Shown piece by piece: positions 32,462-40,415 of a stretch of DNA of 64,000 nucleotides (its first letter is position 1; every line of letters starts with the position of its first letter). The stretch lies in the NCBI RefSeq assembly GCF_003018255.1, contig NZ_CP027440.1; one strand, given 5' to 3'. The position numbers were made by a program, and so were the translations under genes. This DNA is from Escherichia coli (GTDB taxonomy: Bacteria; Pseudomonadota; Gammaproteobacteria; Enterobacterales; Enterobacteriaceae). The notes below the pieces were generated by a model. It was given only the letters and a program-made list of their open reading frames with translations. It searched no databases and was not told where the DNA came from.

Positions 32462-33753
32462 CCAGGGAAAGATCACGTAACGCTGCTTTTTTGCACTAAA
32501 TAATTCGCATTTTATGTTTAAAAATTGAGATATTCCTCATTACCTGAAGCTGTTTTTTATTGCGTATACATGTTCAAATACTCCTTACATAATTAAGGAG
32601 AACAAAATGGAACTTAAAAAATTGATGGAACATATTTCTGTTATCCCCGATTACAGACAAGCCTGGAAAGTGGAACATAAATTGTCGGATATTCTACTGT
32701 TGACTATTTGTGCCGTTATTTCTGGTGCAGAAGGCTGGGAAGATATAGAGGATTTTGGGGAAACACATCTCGATTTTTTGAAGCAATATGGTGATTTTGA
32801 AAATGGTATTCCTGTTCACGATACCATTGCCAGAGTTGTATCCTGTATCAGTCCTGCAAAATTTCACGAGTGCTTTATTAACTGGATGCGTGACTGCCAT
32901 TCTTCAGATGATAAAGACGTTATTGCAATTGATGGAAAAACGCTCCGGCATTCTTATGACAAGAGTCGCCGCAGGGGAGCGATTCATGTCATTAGTGCGT
33001 TCTCAACAATGCACAGTCTGGTCATCGGACAGATCAGGACGGATGAGAAATCCAATGAGATCACAGCTATCCCAGAACTTCTTAACATGATGGATATTAA
33101 AGGAAAAATCATCACAACTGATGCGATGGGTTGCCAGAAAGATATCGCAGATAAGATACAAAAACAGGGCGGTGATTATTTATTCGCTGTAAAAGGAAAT
33201 CAGGGGCGGCTTAATAAAGCCTTTGAGGAAAATTTCCCACTGAAAGAATTAAATAATCCAGAGCATGACAGTTACGCAATTAGTGAAAAAAGTCACGGCA
33301 GAGAAGAAATCCGTCTTCATATTGTTTGCGATGTCCCTGATGAACTTATTGATTTCATGTTTGAATGGAAAGGTCTGAAGAAATTATGCGTGGCAGTCTC
33401 CTTTCGGTCAATAATAGCAGAACAAAAGAAAGAGCCAGAAATGACGGTCAGATATTATATCAGTTCTGCTGATTTAACCGCAGAGAAGTTCGCCACAGCA
33501 ATCCGAAACCACTGGCACGTGGAGAATAAGCTGCACTGGCGTCTGGACGTGGTAATGAATGAAGACGACTGCAAAATAAGAAGAGGAAATGCAGCAGAAT
33601 TATTTTCAGGGATACGGCACATCGCTATTAATATTTTAACGAATGATAATGTATTCAAGGCAGGGTTAAGACGTAAGATGCGAAAAGCAGCCATGGACAG
33701 AAACTACCTGGCGTCAGTCCTTGCGGGGAGCGGGCTTTCGTAATCTTTCCCTG
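32462..33753 (+). mobile_element. H-repeat element (ISAs1-family insertion sequence), copy 1, about 1292 bp with imperfect terminal inverted repeats cagggaaagatca ... taatctttccctg
   Basis: Near-identical to copy 2 at 39125..40415; ends defined by where the two copies lose similarity to each other; IRs read from sequence. Confidence 0.8.
32607..33743 (+). CDS. H-repeat-associated protein / ISAs1-family transposase (378 aa)
   Basis: 378-aa ORF with AAGGAG site; about 97 percent identical to the ORF at 39269..40405; recognised as YdcC/YhhI-type H-rpt protein. Confidence 0.85.
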
Positions 33754-34359
33754 AACACCGAGGTGCTGAATAACCGCACCACGGATGTGATAAACAACCA
33801 TGCTGAGACCATCGGCAACAATCAGGTGATTGCGGTTACCAACAATCAGATACAGACGGTGGGCGTTAACCAGATAGAGACGGTGGGCAGTAACCAGATC
33901 ATTAAAGTGGGCTCTGTTCAGGTGGAAACGATTGGACTTGTTCGTGCGCTGACCGTGGGCGTGGCGTATCAGACGACGGTAGGTGGCATTATGAACACCT
34001 CGGTGGCCCTGATGCAGTCCTCGCAGATCGGTTTGCATAAATCGTTGATGGTCGGGCTGGGTTATGACGTCAAAGTCGGAAATAACGTTACCTTCACCGT
34101 TGGTAAAACGAAAAAGGATGATACCGGACAGACCGCGATTTACTCCGCCGGTGAGCATCTGGAACTCTGCTGTGGTAAGGCAAGGCTGGTGCTGACTAAG
34201 GACGGACAAATTTTTCTCAACGGCACAAAAATTCATTTGCAGGGTAAGGAGCAGGTTAATGGTGACTCACTGTTGATTAACTGGAACTGTGCAGCCTCGA
34301 AATCCCCACCGAAGACCCCTGATGAAAAGCAGGATACGCCGGATATGAGAGAGTACTGA
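33754..34359 (+). pseudogene. VgrG (T6SS spike protein) C-terminal fragment, 5'-truncated at the H-repeat boundary
   Basis: Reading frame open from the H-rpt right end; product carries VgrG C-terminal repeat motifs (VINNHAETIGNNQVIAVTNNQIQTVGVNQIETVGSNQ...). Confidence 0.7.
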
Positions 34360-34425: not shown

Positions 34426-37400
34426 ATGAGCGGAAAACCAGCGGCGCGTCAGGGAGATATGACTCAGTATGGCGGTCCCATTGTCCAGGGTTCGGCAGGT
34501 GTAAGAATTGGCGCGCCCACCGGCGTGGCGTGCTCGGTGTGTCCGGGCGGGATGACTTCGGGCAACCCGGTAAATCCGCTGCTGGGGGCGAAGGTGCTGC
34601 CCGGCGAGACGGACCTTGCGCTGCCCGGCCCGCTGCCGTTCATTCTCTCCCGCACCTACAGCAGCTACCGGACGAAGACGCCTGCGCCGGTGGGGATTTT
34701 TGGCCCCGGCTGGAAAGCGCCTTCTGATATCCGCTTACAGATACGCGATGATGCACTGGTACTCAACGACAACGGCGGACGGAGCATTCACTTTGAGCCG
34801 CTGCTGCCGGGTGAGGCGGTGTACAGCCGCAGCGAGTCAATGTGGCTGGTGCGCGGTGGTAAGGCAGCGCAGCCGGACGGCCACACGCTGGGGCGGCTGT
34901 GGGGGGCGCTGCCGCCGGATATCCGGTTAAGCCCGCATCTTTACCTGGCGACCAGCAGCGCACAGGGACCGTGGTGGATACTGGGGTGGTCAGAGCGGGT
35001 GCCGGGTGCTGAGGACGTACTGCCAGCGCCGCTGCCGCCGTACCGGGTGCTGACGGGGCTGGCGGACCGCTTCGGGCGGACGCTGACGTACCGGCGTGAG
35101 GCCGCCGGCGACCTGGCCGGGGAAATCACCGGCGTGACGGACGGTGCCGGGCGTGAGTTCCGTCTGGTGCTGACCACGCAGGCGCAGCGTGCGGAAGAGG
35201 CCCGCACCTCTTCGCTATCTTCTTCTGACCGTCCCCGCCCTCTCTCAGTCTCAGCGTTCCCCGACACACTGCCCGGTACCGAATACGGCCCCGACAGGGG
35301 TATCCGCCTTTCGGCGGTGTGGCTGATGCACGACCCGGCATACCCGGAGAGCCTGCCCGGTGCGCCACTGGTGCGGTACACGTATACGGAAGCCGGTGAA
35401 CTGCTGGCGGTATATGACCGCAGCAATACGCAGGTGCGCGCTTTCACGTATGACGCGCAGCACCCGGGCCGGATGGTGGCGCACCGTTACGCGGGAAGGC
35501 CGGAGATGCGCTACCGCTACGACGATGCGGGGCGGGTGGTGGAGCAGCTGAACCCGGCAGGCCTGAGTTACCGCTACCAGTATGAGCAGGACCGCATCAC
35601 CGTCACCGACAGCCTGAACCGGCGTGAGGTGCTGCATACAGAAGGCGGGGCCGGGCTGAAGCGGGTGGTGAAAAAAGAACTGGCGGACGGCAGCGTCACG
35701 CACAGCGGGTATGACGCGGCAGGAAGGCTCACGGCACAGACGGACGCGGCGGGACGGCGGACAGAGTACGGCCTGAATGTGGTGTCCGGCGATATCACGG
35801 ATATCACCACGCCGGACGGGCGGGAGACGAAATTTTACTATAACGACGGGAACCAGTTAACGGCGGTGGTGTACCCGGACGGGCTGGAGAGCAGCCGGGC
35901 ATATGATGAGCTGGACAGACTGGTATCGGAGACATCGCGCAGCGGGGAGACAGTACGCTACCGCTACGATGACGTGCACAGTGAGTTACCGGCGACGACA
36001 ACGGATGCGACGGGCAGCACCCGGCAGATGACCTGGAGCCGCTACGGGCAGTTGCTGGCCTTCACCGACTGCTCGGGCTACCAGACCCGCTATGAATACG
36101 ACCGCTTCGGCCAGATGACGGCGGTTCACCGCGAGGAAGGTATCAGCCTTTACCGCCACTATGACAACCGTGGCCGGTTAACCTCGGTGAAAGACGCACA
36201 GGGCCGTGAAACGCAGTATGAGTACAACGCCGCAGGCGACCTGACTGCCGTTATCACCCCGGACGGCAACCGGAGCGAGACACAGTACGATGCGTGGGGA
36301 AAGGCGGTCAGCACCACGCAGGGCGGGCTGACGCGCAGTATGGAGTACGATGCTGCCGGACGTGTCATCAGCCTGACCAACGAGAACGGCAGTCACAGCG
36401 ACTTCAGCTACGATGCGCTGGACCGCCTGGTACAGCAGGGCGGCTTTGACGGGCGGACGCAACGTTATCATTATGACCTGACCGGAAAACTCACGCAGAG
36501 TGAAGATGAGGGGCTTGTCATCCTCTGGTACTACGATGAATCGGACCGTATCACTCACCGCACGGTGAACGGCGAACCGGCAGAGCAGTGGCAGTATGAT
36601 GGCCACGGCTGGCTGAGAGAAATCAGCCACCTGAGCGAAGGCCACCGTGTTGCCGTCCACTATGGCTACGACGATAAGGGCCGTCTGACCGGGGAGCGCC
36701 AGACGGTGGAGAACCCGGAGACGGGGGAACTGCTGTGGCAGCATGAGACGAAACAGGCATACAACGAACAGGGGCTGGCAAACCGCGTCACGCCGGACAG
36801 CCTGCCGCCGGTGGAGTGGCTGGCCTATGGCAGCGGTTATCTGGCGGGCATGAAGCTGGGCGGGACGCCGCTGCTGGAGTACATGCGGGACAGACTGCAC
36901 CGGGAGACGGTGCGCAGCTTCGGCAGCATGGCAGGCAATACAGCCGCATATGAACTGACCAGCACTTACACCCCCGCAGGCCAGTTACAGAGCCGGCACC
37001 TGAACAGCCTGGTGTTTGATTGTGACTATAACTGGAATGACAACGGCGACCTGATGCGCATCAGCGGCCCGCGACAGACGCGGGAATACGGCTACAGCGC
37101 CACGGGCAGGCTGGAGAGCGTGCGCACCCTCGCACCGGACCTGGACATCCGCATCCCGTATGCCACCGACCCGGCGGGCAACCGGCTGCCGGACCCGGAG
37201 CTGCACCCGGACAGTACACTCACAGTGTGGCCGGATAACCGAATCACCGAAGACGCGCACTACCTGTACCGTTACGATGAATACGGCAGGCTGGCGGAGA
37301 AGACGGACCGCATCCCGGCGGGTGTGATACGGACGGACGACGAGCGGACCCACCACTACCACTACGACAGCCAGCACCGCCTGGTGTTCTATACGCGGAT

Positions 37401-38586
37401 ACAGCATGGCGAGCCACTGGTCGAGAGCCGCTACCTTTACGACCCGCTGGGCCGCCGGACGGGTAAACGGGTATGGCGGCGGGAGCGTGACCTGACGGGG
37501 TGGATGTCGCTGTCGCGTAAACCGGAGGTGACGTGGTACGGCTGGGACGGCGACCACCTGACGACGGTGCAGACCGACACCACGCGTATCCAGACGGTAT
37601 ATCAGCCGGGGAGCTTCGCGCCGCTCATCCGCATCGAAACAGACAACGGTGAGCGGGAGAAAGCGCAGCGCCGCAGCCTGGCGGAGAAGCTGCAGCAGGA
37701 AGGGAGCGAGGACGGGCACGGCGTGGTATTTCCGGCTGAACTGGTGCGGCTGCTGGACAGACTGGAGGAAGAAATCCGGGCAGACCGCGTGAGCAGTGAA
37801 AGCCGGGCGTGGCTTGCGCAGTGCGGGCTGACGGTGGAGCAACTGGAAAAACAGGTGGAGCCGGAATACACACCGGCGCGAAAAGTTCATCTTTACCACT
37901 GCGACCACCGGGGACTGCCGCTGGCGCTTATCAGCGAAGACGGCAATACGGTGTGGAGCGCGGAGTATGATGAATGGGGAAACCTGCTTAATGAGGAGAA
38001 CCCGCATCATGTGTATCAGTCATACCGTCTGCCGGGGCAGCAGCATGATGAGGAGTCGGGGCTGTACTACAACCGGAACCGGTACTACGATCCGTTGCAG
38101 GGGCGGTATATCATCCAGGACCCGATAGGGCTGGCGGGGGGAATAAACCCGTACAGTTATGTTATGAACAATCCTGTGCAATGGATTGATCCATTGGGAT
38201 TAGCTCATACTTCAGGAAAATGGAAGGACTGTGGTAAAGGTTGTCGAATCCGAATAGATGGCGATGCTGTTGGTGACGGAAGACATTTGCATTGGGAGTG
38301 TAAAAATGGGAGTGGTGTAATGGGGGAATTTGGAGGTATGTCCCATGGTGAGGATTACTCATCAGCACCAAATAGCATTAAGAAATGTGCAAAAAAATAT
38401 GGTTTCGAGCCAGAACCAAGTAAAGATCTGTCATGCAAAACCTCCGGGCTATCAACTACTGATGCGGCTCTTGCAACTGGTGCTACAATTGGCGCAGGGT
38501 ATGTTATATATAGAGTGATTCGATTTATACCTTCACTTGCACCACCTCTTTGGTGGTCAATACCTGCAAACGTTGTTACTCCATGA
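34426..38586 (+). CDS. rhsE: Rhs-family polymorphic toxin with N-terminal PAAR motif, YD-repeat core and divergent C-terminal domain (1386 aa)
   Basis: Literal PAAR at residues 5-8 ([11 protein letters not shown]); numerous YD repeats; conserved core end DPIGLAGG...DPLGL at 38119-38202; sharp GC-rich to AT-rich switch after about 38160. Confidence 0.9.
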
Positions 38587-38612
38587 TTAAAACGGATAAT
38601 GGAGATTATATA

Positions 38613-38957
38613 ATGAGCGATTTTGACATTGTGAGTTCAATTGACTGGCATGATGGGGTTTTGTTAGAAGTAAAAACGACATTCAAAGAATCTCATTTTA
38701 ACATGACGTTATTTATTGACATTTATAAAAATGAGAACATTAGGGAAAAAATGATAGTTGAATTTTCTGATGTAGATGATTTAGTGTTCGCTATGGATTC
38801 TGCTGAGTTAATCGATAATCACAAGTCAGGTAATATAAGTAATGGGTATGTAAAGAAATTAAAAAACAAAAGGATATATAAATTTTTTCTTTATTTTTCT
38901 GATGGCTTATTAAGCATGACATTTAAAAATTTACAATTAATAAAACCATTAGAGTAA
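38613..38957 (+). CDS. Putative Rhs immunity protein (small AT-rich ORF downstream of the Rhs C-terminal domain)
   Basis: ORF 38550..38957; ATG 38613 preceded by GGAG at 8-nt spacing (114 aa); alternative ATG 38583 overlaps the rhsE stop as ATGA (124 aa); position and AT-richness typical of Rhs immunity genes. Confidence 0.55.
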   Translation: MSDFDIVSSIDWHDGVLLEVKTTFKESHFNMTLFIDIYKNENIREKMIVEFSDVDDLVFAMDSAELIDNHKSGNISNGYVKKLKNKRIYKFFLYFSDGLLSMTFKNLQLIKPLE

Positions 38958-39124
38958 CCAAATAAAAGGACTGGAGGAATCAGGGGAAGATCATTAAAGT
39001 TGTGATTATCATCACAACTTTAATCTTGGTTTCACCTTGTTGATTTGATTAAAATTTAATCGCCAAATAATTAAATATATTAGAAAAGGACGTCTGGTGA
39101 ACATTCAAAGTCTTCTTGAGCATA

Positions 39125-40415
39125 CAGGGAAAGATCATCAGAAGTACACTTTTTGTACTAAATAATTCGCATTTTATGTTTAAAAATTGAGATATTCCTC
39201 ATTACCTAAAGCTGTTTTTTATTGCTTATACATGATCAAATACTCCTTACATAATTAAGGAGAACAAAATGGAACTTAAAAAATTGATGGGACATATTTC
39301 TATTATCCCCGATTACAGACAAACCTGGAAAGTGGAACATAAATTGTCAGATATTCTACTGTTGATTATTAGTGCCGTTATTTCTGGTGCAGAAGGCTGG
39401 GAAGATATAGAGGATTTTGGGGAAACACATCTCGATTTTTTAAAGCAATATGGTGATTTTAAAAATGGTATTCCTGTTCACGATACCATTGCCAGAGTTG
39501 TATCCTGTATCAGTCCTGCAAAATTTCACGAGTGCTTTATTAACTGGATGCGTGACTGCCATTCTTCAGATGATAAAGACGTCATTGCAATTGATGGAAA
39601 AACGCTCCGGCATTCTTATGACAAGAGTCGTCGCAGGGGAGCGATTCATGTCATTAGTGCATTCTCAACAATGCACAGTCTGGTCATCGGACAGATCAGG
39701 ACGGATGAGAAATCTAATGAGATTACAGCTATCCCTGAACTTCTTAACATGCTGGACATTAAAGGAAAAATTATCACAACTGATGCGATGGGTTGCCAGA
39801 AAGATATTGCAGAGAAGATACAAAAACAGGGAGGTGATTATTTATTCTCTGTAAAAGGAAACCCGGGGCGGCTGAATAAAGCTTTTGAGGAAAAATTTCC
39901 ACTGAAAGAATTAAATAATCCAGAGCATGACAGTTACGCAATTAGTGAAAAGAGTCACGGCAGAGAAGAAATCCGTCTTCACATTGTTTGCGATGTCCCT
40001 GATGAACTTATTGATTTCACGTTTGAATGGAAAGGTCTGAAGAAATTATGCGTGGCAGTCTCCTTTCGGTCAATAATAGCAGAACAAAAGAAAGAGCCAG
40101 AAATGACGGTCAGATATTATATCAGTTCTGCTGATTTAACCGCAGAGATGTTCGCCACAGCAATCCGAAACCACTGGCACGTGGAGAATAAGCTGCACTG
40201 GCGTCTGGACGTGGTAATGAATGAAGACGACTGCAAAATAAGAAGAGGAAACGCCGCAGAATTATTTTCAGGGATACGGCACATCGCTATTAATATTTTA
40301 ACGAATGATAAGGTATTCAAGGCAGGGTTAAGACGTAAGATGCGAAAAGCAGCCATGGACAAAAACTATCTGGCGTCAGTCCTTGCGGGGAGCGGGCTTT
40401 CGTAATCTTTCCCTG
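39125..40415 (+). mobile_element. H-repeat element (ISAs1-family insertion sequence), copy 2, about 1291 bp, same orientation as copy 1
   Basis: Near-identical to 32462..33753 including terminal inverted repeats. Confidence 0.8.
39269..40405 (+). CDS. H-repeat-associated protein / ISAs1-family transposase (378 aa)
   Basis: 378-aa ORF with AAGGAG site; paralogue of 32607..33743. Confidence 0.85.

What the first reader, a model, noticed from the sequence alone, without database searches (positions are those of the whole stretch)
38203..38586. Unassigned AT-rich C-terminal toxin domain of RhsE with a hydrophobic tail
After the conserved core end (DPIGLAGG...DPLGL, 38119-38202) the sequence switches abruptly from GC-rich to AT-rich. 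The remaining ~127 residues ([45 protein letters not shown]...) are not recognisable to me as any common Rhs toxin family. The segment ends in a hydrophobic stretch ([31 protein letters not shown]), unusual for a soluble nuclease-type toxin. The RHLHWE motif might hint at an HNH-like metal site, but that is speculation.
Basis: partly seen in the sequence, partly recalled or inferred. Interest (0 to 1): 0.65.

Follow-up and report, generated by a model that had tools for sequence, protein, structure and literature searches.

The report
Two-part Rhs toxin tip with immunity
The last 127 residues of this E. coli RhsE protein are a swapped-in toxin tip made of an uncatalogued 70-residue Cys/His-rich domain plus a short membrane-seeking tail already listed in Pfam as Tox-WTIP, and the small soluble protein encoded next to it, its likely antidote, goes with the first part and not with the tail.

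Summary
The Rhs core model ends exactly at DPLGL (residue 1259). GC then drops from about 0.62 to 0.43, and 127 more residues follow. The "unassigned" reading is half right.

**Tail.** CT residues 87-127 match Pfam Tox-WTIP (E 2.7e-13) and carry both defining motifs, RVIR and WWSIP. This family was predicted by computation to form pores and I found no experimental test of it.

**Head.** CT residues 1-70 are a separate conserved domain with 65 representative relatives.
- It has no Pfam, NCBIfam or PDB sequence match.
- It always sits directly after the Rhs core and is always followed by a 36-75 residue tail. At least five unrelated tail types occur, and most are hydrophobic.

**Best reading (about 0.5).** The head is the immunity-recognised, probably enzymatic toxin. 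The WTIP tail is an interchangeable membrane anchor or insertion module. This would be a new variant of the Rhs toxin-immunity theme, and it needs experiments.

The parts
34426..38586 (+). Full-length PAAR-type RhsE gene (1386 aa). The core is residues 1-1259 and the toxin tip is residues 1260-1386.
   Evidence: ORF. NCBIfam RHS_core 1-1259 (2704 bits) and Rhs_assc_core 1181-1259. It is 95.9% identical to the 'RHS element core protein' of E. coli PCN033.
38119..38202 (+). End of the Rhs core, DPIGL...DPLGL. From other Rhs proteins this is presumed to be the autoproteolysis motif that releases the tip.
   Evidence: Sequence. The core models end at residue 1259. Cleavage itself is inferred from other Rhs proteins (10.1101/2024.02.26.582050) and was not tested here.
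38131..39123 (+). Exchanged low-GC cassette (tip plus immunity gene) relative to K-12 rhsE-ydcD.
   Evidence: blastn against the K-12 locus: homology ends at 38130 and resumes at 39124. GC profile.
38203..38418 (+). HEAD, CT residues 1-72: an uncatalogued Cys/His-rich domain. H28, W31, C33 and C62 are invariant. C10, C14, R17, H30, E42, S47, H48 and P56 are at least 90% conserved.
38419..38460 (+). Polar linker, CT residues 73-86 ([14 protein letters not shown]).
   Evidence: Low pLDDT of 52-68. This position is variable and Pro/Ser-rich across the family.
38461..38583 (+). TAIL, CT residues 87-127: the Tox-WTIP module. It has a hydrophobic stretch A88-Y103, RxxR at R104-R107, and WWSIP at W117-P121.
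   Evidence: Pfam PF15654 E 1.7e-13 to 2.7e-13, model positions 36/39-79 of 79. Motifs as defined in PMC3482391. KD19 maximum 1.32. pLDDT about 50-57.
38615..38957 (+). Candidate immunity gene: 114 aa, soluble, pI 5.3. Conserved motifs are WHDG (H13, D14), D62, G73-N74 and D97-G98.
38993..39024 (+). 14-bp-stem hairpin after the immunity gene. It may be a terminator or the edge of the cassette.
   Evidence: Pattern scan only. Function was not tested.
33752..34359 (+). 3' remnant of the cognate vgrG. Its 5' ~1.5 kb is replaced by an ISAs1 (H-repeat) copy at 32463..33753.
   Evidence: blastn against PCN033: window 31219-32462 matches L001 1930-3174, window 33752-34430 matches L001 4660-5337, and the ISAs1 copy lies between them. 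PCN033 annotation.
39125..40415 (+). Second ISAs1/H-repeat element (ydcC-like transposase ORF 39269..40405) flanking the Rhs element.
   Evidence: NCBIfam transpos_ISAs1 E 1.3e-121. 96.3% identical to the upstream copy.

Best explanation
The released 127-residue tip is a two-module toxin.

**Module 1, the head (CT 1-70).** This small Cys/His-rich domain of a previously uncatalogued family is the part the immunity protein recognises, and it is most likely the active part. I think it is an enzyme, possibly metal-dependent and possibly a nuclease, that acts on the cytoplasmic side of the target cell.

**Module 2, the Tox-WTIP tail (CT 87-127).** It follows a short polar linker. It is one of several interchangeable C-terminal membrane-seeking segments that insert into the inner membrane. 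It either tethers the head there or helps it get across. It is probably not a self-sufficient pore-forming toxin.

**The downstream ORF (38615..38957).** This 114-residue soluble acidic protein is the cognate immunity protein. It has a PIM7-like all-beta fold. By analogy with PIM7 it probably blocks the head's active face with the conserved His-Asp loop between its first helix and first strand.

**Shown**
- The modular anatomy.
- The pairing of the immunity family with the head.
- The family memberships and the fold matches.

**Inferred**
- Autoproteolytic release of the tip.
- Cytoplasmic site of action.
- Enzymatic nature of the head.
- Anchoring or translocation role of the tail.
- How the immunity protein blocks the head.
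For: 1. **The head is an autonomous conserved domain.** It has 65 representatives with E up to 1e-3 and 46 with E up to 1e-10. H28, W31, C33 and C62 are invariant, and C10, C14, R17, H30, E42, S47 and H48 are near-invariant. AlphaFold pLDDT is 85-97 for the head against about 50-57 for the tail.

2. **Tails are interchangeable.**
- Only 6 of 54 family members carry Tox-WTIP.
- Others have AEPCG/Gly-rich, CxxC-plus-hydrophobic, WWAPLLLP or Pro-rich tails. All tails are 36-75 aa and no member ends right after the head.
- Tox-WTIP also occurs behind a different N-terminal part (P0020).

3. **Immunity follows the head.** The same ~105-115 aa family sits directly downstream in 11 of 11 loci:
- WTIP tails: window, L006, L009, L013.
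- Gly-rich tail: L002.
- WWAPLLLP tail: L008.
- CxxC tails: L011, L015.
- Other hydrophobic tail: L010.
- Pro-rich tail with no hydrophobic segment: L012.
- Frameshifted head with intact immunity gene: L016.

   P0020, which has a WTIP tail without the head, has an unrelated downstream gene.

4. **The immunity protein is soluble and acidic.** KD19 maximum is 0.81 and pI is 4.6-5.7 in most members. The head is mildly basic, with median pI 7.9. No second small membrane ORF lies downstream.

6. **Topology.** 36 of 54 tails have an uncharged hydrophobic block of at least 14 aa, and 22 of these run to the C-terminus. In 27 of 36, Lys/Arg are enriched on the head side. By the positive-inside rule this is the pattern of a tail-anchored protein with its head in the cytoplasm.
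Against: - Immunity folds are known to be reused against unrelated toxins (Zhang 2012), so a PIM7-like fold does not prove a nuclease.
- The WTIP tail itself departs from the tail-anchor charge pattern. Its RxxR follows the hydrophobic stretch, which fits Zhang's two-helix hairpin or pore idea as well.
- The four conserved cysteines would also suit a disulfide-stabilised periplasmic domain.
- The interface in the fused head-linker-immunity model could not be inspected, because no PAE or coordinates are returned. The overall pTM is 0.55.
- In this window the adjacent vgrG is truncated, so delivery in this strain is uncertain.
Confidence: 0.5

Rival explanations
1. The Tox-WTIP tail is the toxin, as Zhang et al. 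predicted. It forms a pore or ion leak in the inner membrane. The conserved head is a non-catalytic accessory, for example an oligomerisation or folding handle. The soluble immunity protein grips that handle to stop the tails from assembling.
For: - Zhang 2012 classify W-TIP as a non-catalytic pore-forming toxin domain.
- Most alternative tails are Gly/Ala-rich hydrophobic segments like those of ionophoric toxins.
- Every family member keeps some tail of 36-75 aa.
- The head matches no enzyme fold.
Against: - The immunity family is constant across at least five unrelated tail types. This includes a Pro-rich tail with no hydrophobic segment (L012).
- The window tail is only weakly hydrophobic (KD19 1.32) with two Arg inside it, and its predicted structure has low confidence.
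- From my own knowledge, not checked here, pore-forming T6SS and CDI toxins are described as having integral-membrane immunity proteins. Here the immunity protein is soluble and no membrane ORF is present.
- The invariant exposed His residues of the head suggest chemistry and not just scaffolding.
Confidence: 0.22
2. The head is a soluble cytoplasmic toxin and the tail is purely a delivery device. After T6SS injection into the periplasm, the hydrophobic tail inserts into the inner membrane and carries the small head across. This would be analogous to the interchangeable cytoplasm-entry domains of CdiA-CT toxins or the N-terminal transmembrane domains of prePAAR effectors. The tail would play no part in the toxic act itself.
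For: - Head and tail shuffle as modules.
- This Rhs has no N-terminal transmembrane region before its PAAR domain.
- A survey of Rhs effectors found that they act mostly in the cytoplasm without a consistent transmembrane domain, leaving the entry route open (10.1101/2024.02.26.582050).
- The immunity protein is cytoplasmic.
Against: - Nothing here tests translocation.
- The charge distribution of most tails fits static tail-anchoring from the cytoplasmic side just as well.
- Seven of 54 tails are not hydrophobic at all.
Confidence: 0.18
3. The head is an HNH-like or restriction-endonuclease-like metal nuclease. On this view RHLHWE, or D19...E32-x-K34, would be the catalytic motif.
For: - H28 is invariant and H30 and H48 are at least 90% conserved.
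- The immunity fold is shared with the immunity protein of a metal-dependent DNase.
- The pairing of a basic head with an acidic immunity protein is typical of nuclease toxins.
Against: - No HNH or REase Pfam family hits any of the 54 members.
- No PDB profile hit.
- E32 and K34 are not conserved. Position 32 is G, D, K, V, S or N in many relatives.
Confidence: 0.08

Closest known systems
Tox-WTIP (Pfam PF15654; W-TIP domain of Zhang et al. 2012, Biol Direct 7:18)
   Same: - The last 41 residues match the HMM (E 2.7e-13).
- They carry both defining motifs (RxxR and Wx[ST]IP).
- They sit at the extreme C-terminus of an RHS protein in a proteobacterium.
   Different: - Only model positions 36/39-79 are matched.
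- The second 'helix' is Pro-rich and poorly predicted.
- Zhang lists no immunity protein for the family. Here the neighbouring immunity family tracks the domain in front of the tail, which questions the idea that W-TIP is the toxic unit (and the locus calls).
PT7-PIM7 polymorphic DNase-immunity pair (Nachmias et al., bioRxiv 10.1101/2021.10.19.465003; PDB 8owu)
   Same: - Both are small acidic cytoplasmic proteins encoded directly after a C-terminal polymorphic toxin domain.
- A conserved Asp lies in the loop between the first helix and first strand of both.
   Different: - Sequence identity is 8% and there is no sequence-level hit.
- The toxin partner shows no similarity to PT7.
- PT7 is LXG/T7SS-linked in Firmicutes and has no membrane tail.
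Pore-forming or ionophoric T6SS and CDI toxins (Tse5-CT, Ssp6, Tse4, CdiA-CT ionophore family)
   Same: These are also short hydrophobic, Gly/Ala-rich C-terminal segments on polymorphic toxins. Tse5 is itself an Rhs protein (titles and abstracts).
   Different: From my own knowledge, not checked here, those toxins are described as neutralised by integral-membrane immunity proteins and as lacking a conserved soluble head. Here the immunity protein is soluble and constant across different tails (and the locus calls).
Bipartite CdiA-CT toxins (entry domain plus toxin) and prePAAR effectors with N-terminal transmembrane domains
   Same: Both combine an interchangeable membrane-interacting module with a separate immunity-recognised toxin domain. 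This comparison comes from my own knowledge and was not tested here.
   Different: The order is reversed here, with the toxin first and the membrane module last. The module is only about 40 residues. No chaperone (Eag) gene was seen next to this rhs.
E. coli K-12 rhsE (pseudogene) / ydcD
   Same: Same chromosomal locus and the same Rhs core (92% identity up to window position 38130).
   Different: K-12 carries a different tip and a different downstream gene (ydcD, 160 aa), and its rhsE is truncated.

Membership tests
Rhs polymorphic toxin (RHS element core protein) | Full-length match to the RHS core and RHS-associated core models, ending at the DPxGL motif. | tested here: met
   NF041261 RHS_core 1-1259 (2704 bits against a cut-off of 2000). 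TIGR03696 covers 1181-1259.
Rhs polymorphic toxin (RHS element core protein) | A variable C-terminal tip with deviant composition, followed by a small immunity gene and exchanged as a cassette. | tested here: met
   GC drop. Breakpoints against K-12 at 38130 and 39124. Conserved downstream ORF.
Rhs polymorphic toxin (RHS element core protein) | Autoproteolytic release of the tip and T6SS-dependent delivery. | not testable with these tools
   The motif is present. The adjacent vgrG is truncated by ISAs1 in this window.
Tox-WTIP (PF15654) | Significant match to the family HMM. | tested here: met
   E 2.7e-13, 50 bits, query residues 87-127, model positions 36/39-79 of 79.
Tox-WTIP (PF15654) | RxxR signature in the first hydrophobic segment and Wx[ST]IP in the second (Zhang 2012). 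| tested here: met
   R104-V-I-R107 and W117-W-S-I-P121 (definition).
Tox-WTIP (PF15654) | Two membrane-spanning helices. | tested here: inconclusive
   One 16-22 residue stretch with KD19 of 1.32. The second segment ([18 protein letters not shown]) is Pro-rich. AlphaFold pLDDT is about 50-57.
Tox-WTIP (PF15654) | Pore formation as the toxic mechanism. | not testable with these tools
   This is a prediction only in Zhang 2012. No experimental paper was found in the held library.
HNH / beta-beta-alpha-metal nucleases | Match to an HNH-type profile. | tested here: not met
   No such Pfam hit in the window tip or in any of 54 relatives. No PDB profile hit.
HNH / beta-beta-alpha-metal nucleases | Beta-beta-alpha-metal fold. 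| tested here: not met
   [not shown]
PT7-PIM7 toxin-immunity system | Immunity protein with the PIM7 fold. | tested here: met
   [not shown]
PT7-PIM7 toxin-immunity system | Toxin homologous to PT7. | tested here: not met
   [not shown]
PT7-PIM7 toxin-immunity system | An acidic residue at the tip of the alpha1-betaA loop inserts into the toxin's catalytic pocket. | tested here: inconclusive
   The near-invariant H13-D14 lies between the predicted helix (residues 3-8) and the first strand (from residue 16). The interface could not be read from the fused model.
Pore-forming T6SS/CDI toxins with membrane immunity | The cognate immunity protein is an integral membrane protein. | tested here: not met
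   Immunity KD19 maximum is 0.81, with no signal peptide. No other small ORF with a hydrophobic segment lies downstream.
Tail-anchored membrane protein architecture | A soluble N-terminal domain plus a single hydrophobic segment at or near the C-terminus, with basic residues on the N-terminal side. | tested here: inconclusive
   This holds for the family: 36 of 54 have an uncharged hydrophobic block, 22 of them reach the C-terminus, and K/R are enriched on the head side in 27 of 36. The WTIP-type tail of the window is the exception.

The most novel reading that the evidence does not exclude
Pfam's 'pore-forming toxin' Tox-WTIP is not a toxin in its own right. It is one of at least five interchangeable C-terminal membrane-insertion tails. 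These tails are attached to a previously unrecognised, novel-fold 70-residue Cys/His enzyme. Together they define a family of tail-anchored Rhs/T6SS toxins that act at the cytoplasmic face of the victim's inner membrane. A PIM7-fold soluble immunity protein neutralises them.
Probability: 0.35. Interest if true: 0.7.

Novelty: new variant of a known kind. Interest (0 to 1): 0.52.

Why it matters
- **Scale.** Rhs tips are a main source of strain-specific killing in E. coli, and this one is carried by about 7% of complete genomes (405 of 5426).
- **New families.** If the head is the active part, a new toxin family and a new immunity family could be catalogued. Neither matched Pfam or NCBIfam here.
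- **A Pfam annotation would change.** The 'pore-forming' label on Tox-WTIP, in use since 2012, would need revision.
- **An open question becomes testable.** A soluble warhead carrying swappable C-terminal membrane segments is a tractable system. It could show how Rhs toxins that lack N-terminal transmembrane domains reach, or stay at, the inner membrane. A recent survey of Rhs effectors left that question open.
- **Distant systems would be linked.** The PIM7-like immunity fold would connect a Firmicute T7SS DNase system with a proteobacterial T6SS system.

Tried and rejected
- **HNH reading.** Rejected: no profile hit and no fold hit.
- **Zn(Cys)4 versus two disulfides for C10, C14, C33 and C62.** Not resolvable, because model coordinates are not returned.
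- **Fused head-(GGS)10-immunity AlphaFold model.** Both domains fold well, but the tool gives no PAE or contacts, so the interface is unknown.
- **PT7 and PIM7 sequences.** I looked for them for a profile comparison, but they are not in the held text or supplement.
- **Genome-contig scan.**
  - With a narrow alignment it returned only 4 loci, so the head-immunity association rests on 11 loci and not on a census.
- **Search with the WTIP tail alone.** It found only close E. coli and Hafnia fragments. The architectures of head-less WTIP proteins rest on one example (P0020).
- **Other negative searches.**
  - tblastn against plasmids gave nothing.
  - PADLOC gave nothing.
  - The EHEC RhsE in-silico paper and the S. 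bongori Rhs structure paper concern different tips.

Full report

Yes. The + strand ORF 34426..38586 encodes a 1386-residue protein. NCBIfam's RHS_core equivalog matches residues 1-1259 at 2704 bits, and Rhs_assc_core matches 1181-1259. Both curated core models therefore stop exactly at the DPLGL that ends at window position 38202, and residue 1260 (AHTSGKW...) starts at 38203.

GC is 0.58-0.70 over the core, 0.42-0.45 over 38200-38600, and 0.25-0.30 over the next ORF.

The locus is the RhsE site by synteny. The near-identical E. coli PCN033 region reads ansP-...-vgrG-rhs-orf-ydcC-yddH-nhoA, and K-12 has rhsE-ydcD-ydcC-yddH at the same place. Homology to K-12 rhsE (92%) stops at 38130 and resumes at 39124, so about 1 kb (tip plus downstream ORF) is an exchanged cassette. 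That cassette is present at 95% identity or more in 405 of 5426 complete E. coli genomes, always on the chromosome. It was not found on plasmids.

**2. The tail is a known, named domain.**

Pfam assigns CT residues 87-127 to Tox-WTIP (PF15654) with E 1.7e-13 to 2.7e-13, matching model positions 36/39-79 of 79. Zhang et al. 2012 define W-TIP as a small, highly hydrophobic C-terminal domain with an RxxR signature in a first predicted helix and Wx[ST]IP in a second. They list it under RHS and PVC toxins of proteobacteria, suggest it forms a pore, and name no immunity protein (PMC3482391). The window has R104-V-I-R107 and W117-W-S-I-P121.

I found no experimental work on this domain in the held library.

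In this sequence the hydrophobicity is modest. The best 19-residue Kyte-Doolittle mean is 1.32. The second segment is Pro-rich, and AlphaFold gives the whole tail pLDDT of about 50-57.

**3. The first 70 residues are a separate, uncatalogued domain.**

- *Family size.* A full HMMER scan of 1.84 billion representative proteins with CT residues 1-79 found 65 relatives at E up to 1e-3 and 46 at E up to 1e-10.
- *Position.* In every case where enough sequence is present, the domain follows the Rhs/YD core DPxGL motif directly.
- *Conservation.* An alignment of 54 tips shows H28, W31, C33 and C62 invariant. G5, C10, C14, I16, R17, I18, H30, G38, G41, E42, G44, S47, H48, P56, A63, G67 and F68 are at least 90% conserved.
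- *Database matches.* The domain has no match in Pfam, tested on the window and on all 54 members individually. It has none in NCBIfam, PADLOC or PDB sequences, whether searched with the single sequence or the profile.
- *Taxa.* A genome scan added Citrobacter youngae, Paraburkholderia lycopersici, an Ignatzschineria MAG and a gammaproteobacterial MAG.

**4. Head and tail are independent modules.**

Every one of the 54 tips continues 36-75 residues (median about 50) beyond the head, but the continuations are unrelated to each other. Only 6 of 54 are Tox-WTIP. The others fall into these types:

- Gly/Ala-rich tails with an AEPCG motif.
- Tails with a CxxC pair followed by a hydrophobic segment.
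- Short WWAPLLLP-type hydrophobic ends.
- Other hydrophobic tails.
- Seven Pro-rich tails with no hydrophobic segment.

In the other direction, P0020 carries a nearly identical WTIP tail behind an unrelated N-terminal part.

36 of 54 tails contain an uncharged hydrophobic block of at least 14 residues. In 22 of these the block runs to the C-terminus. In 27 of 36, Lys/Arg are enriched on the head side of the block, and in only 2 on the far side. That is the charge pattern expected for a tail-anchored protein with its head in the cytoplasm. The WTIP tails are the exception, because their RxxR follows the hydrophobic stretch.

**5. The downstream ORF goes with the head.**

ORF 38615..38957 encodes 114 residues with pI 5.3, no hydrophobic segment (KD19 maximum 0.81) and no signal peptide. 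It has no hit in Pfam, NCBIfam, PADLOC or PDB sequences.

A homologue carrying the motifs WHDG/LHDA, AGN[IV] and DG lies directly downstream of the head in all 11 loci I examined:

| Locus | Tail type |
|---|---|
| Window | WTIP |
| L006 (P0021) | WTIP |
| L009 (P0037) | WTIP |
| L013 (Citrobacter) | WTIP |
| L002 (P0010) | Gly-rich; 35% identity, E 3e-22 |
| L008 (P0049) | WWAPLLLP |
| L011 (P0040) | CxxC |
| L015 | CxxC |
| L010 (P0072) | Other hydrophobic; tandem double immunity protein |
| L012 (P0046, Ottowia) | Pro-rich, no hydrophobic segment |
| L016 (Ignatzschineria) | Head frameshifted, immunity gene intact |

The one head-less WTIP protein examined (P0020, L003) has an unrelated downstream gene. 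No second small membrane ORF follows the window's immunity gene.

**6. What the immunity fold says.**

I predicted a fusion of head, (GGS)10 linker and immunity protein, using a partly paired alignment. Both parts fold confidently, the head at pLDDT 91-97 and the immunity protein at 90-96, the latter as an eight-stranded all-beta fold with two short helices.

PIM7 is the immunity protein of PT7, a metal-dependent non-specific DNase of novel fold. In the crystal complex PIM7 covers the catalytic pocket with an acidic face, and its D17 at the tip of the alpha1-betaA loop salt-bridges the catalytic residues (10.1101/2021.10.19.465003). In the present family the near-invariant H13-D14 lies between the predicted first helix (residues 3-8) and first strand (from residue 16). 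This is a positional analogy only. I could not read the modelled interface, because the tool returns no coordinates or PAE.

The head itself shows no similarity to PT7.

**7. Most likely mechanism.**

*Shown*
- The tip is modular.
- The tail belongs to Tox-WTIP.
- The head and the immunity protein are two uncatalogued families that co-occur regardless of tail.
- The immunity protein is soluble and has the PIM7 fold.

*Inferred*
- After autoproteolysis at DPLGL the 127-residue tip is delivered by T6SS.
- The head is the toxic, immunity-recognised part and works on the cytoplasmic side. It is probably an enzyme that uses the exposed His/Glu/Arg residues, with the four Cys holding a metal or disulfides.
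- The tail inserts into the inner membrane, either to tether the head there or to help it cross.
- The immunity protein blocks the head's active face.

I give this about 0.5. Within it, "immunity pairs with the head" is about 0.85, "the tail is not an autonomous pore-former" about 0.5-0.6, and "the head is a nuclease" about 0.3.

*Rivals*
- The tail is the pore-forming toxin and the head is only a handle (0.22).
- The tail is purely a translocation device (0.18).
- The head is an HNH- or REase-type nuclease (0.08).

**8. Comparison and novelty.**

The cassette is an ordinary Rhs toxin-immunity module in its genetics. Its tail is a member of Tox-WTIP: the HMM match and both motifs are met, the two-helix topology is inconclusive, and pore formation is untestable here. 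It is not an HNH nuclease, since both features I tested are not met. It is not a member of the PT7 toxin family, although its immunity protein shares the PIM7 fold. It differs from the pore-forming T6SS and CDI toxins in having a soluble immunity protein.

Three things appear to be new. The head and immunity families themselves are uncatalogued. The head-linker-membrane-tail architecture has swappable tails. And W-TIP may be an accessory module and not the toxic unit. I rate this a new variant of a known kind, of moderate interest.

**9. Caveats.**

- The head-immunity association rests on 11 loci, not a census.
- The behaviour of head-less WTIP proteins rests on one example.
- No activity, topology or binding was measured.
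- In this window the cognate vgrG has lost its 5' ~1.5 kb to an ISAs1 copy, so this copy may depend on another VgrG or be undeliverable.

Noticed in passing
window 32463..33753 and 39125..40415: Two ISAs1/H-repeat elements bracket the Rhs element. Their transposase ORFs are 32607..33743 and 39269..40405, and the copies are 96.3% identical to each other. Relative to E. coli PCN033, the upstream copy replaces the first ~1.5 kb of the cognate vgrG and leaves only a 3' remnant (33752..34359). The RhsE toxin here may lack its own spike protein.
   Followed up: partly
window 38993..39024: A perfect-looking 14-bp-stem hairpin (ATTAAAGTTGTGAT/ATCACAACTTTAAT) sits 36 nt after the immunity gene's stop, just inside the right edge of the exchanged cassette (homology to K-12 resumes at 39124). 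It may be a terminator or a recombination landmark.
   Followed up: no
L012:1501-2796 (P0046, Ottowia testudinis); also P0023, P0067, P0070, P0077, P0081: Seven head-family members have Pro-rich, non-hydrophobic tails in place of a membrane segment, for example ...RPMPQPPRPYIPIFPLPGRMPKIF. In composition these resemble proline-rich antimicrobial peptides. They still keep the same immunity family downstream.
   Followed up: no
L010:6269-6967: The immunity gene next to P0072 encodes a tandem duplication of the immunity domain in one 232-aa protein (a poly-immunity protein).
   Followed up: no
L016:2492-3356 (Ignatzschineria MAG): The head coding sequence is frameshifted, with two overlapping partial ORFs, while the downstream immunity gene is intact. 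This looks like an orphan immunity gene kept after the toxin decayed.
   Followed up: no
L013:2441-4199 (Citrobacter youngae ATCC 29220): Here the tip-plus-immunity cassette (93% identical head) is an orphan module without a full Rhs core. Another orphan Rhs tip with a different C-terminus follows it. This is a typical orphan array from which tips can be swapped in.
   Followed up: no
L002:1-4000: The contig carrying P0010 has a run of small genes upstream. One has a weak TseH hit and one is an Imm58-family immunity gene. This suggests a mixed effector/immunity island in which the head-family tip is one of several orphan cassettes.
   Followed up: no
L006:3001-9528 (Paraburkholderia lycopersici): In this species the same head and WTIP tail are carried by a 1965-aa VgrG-Rhs fusion inside a T6SS cluster (TssF upstream; PAAR, DotU and TssG downstream). 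The same tip is therefore used on both PAAR-linked and VgrG-fused Rhs carriers.
   Followed up: partly
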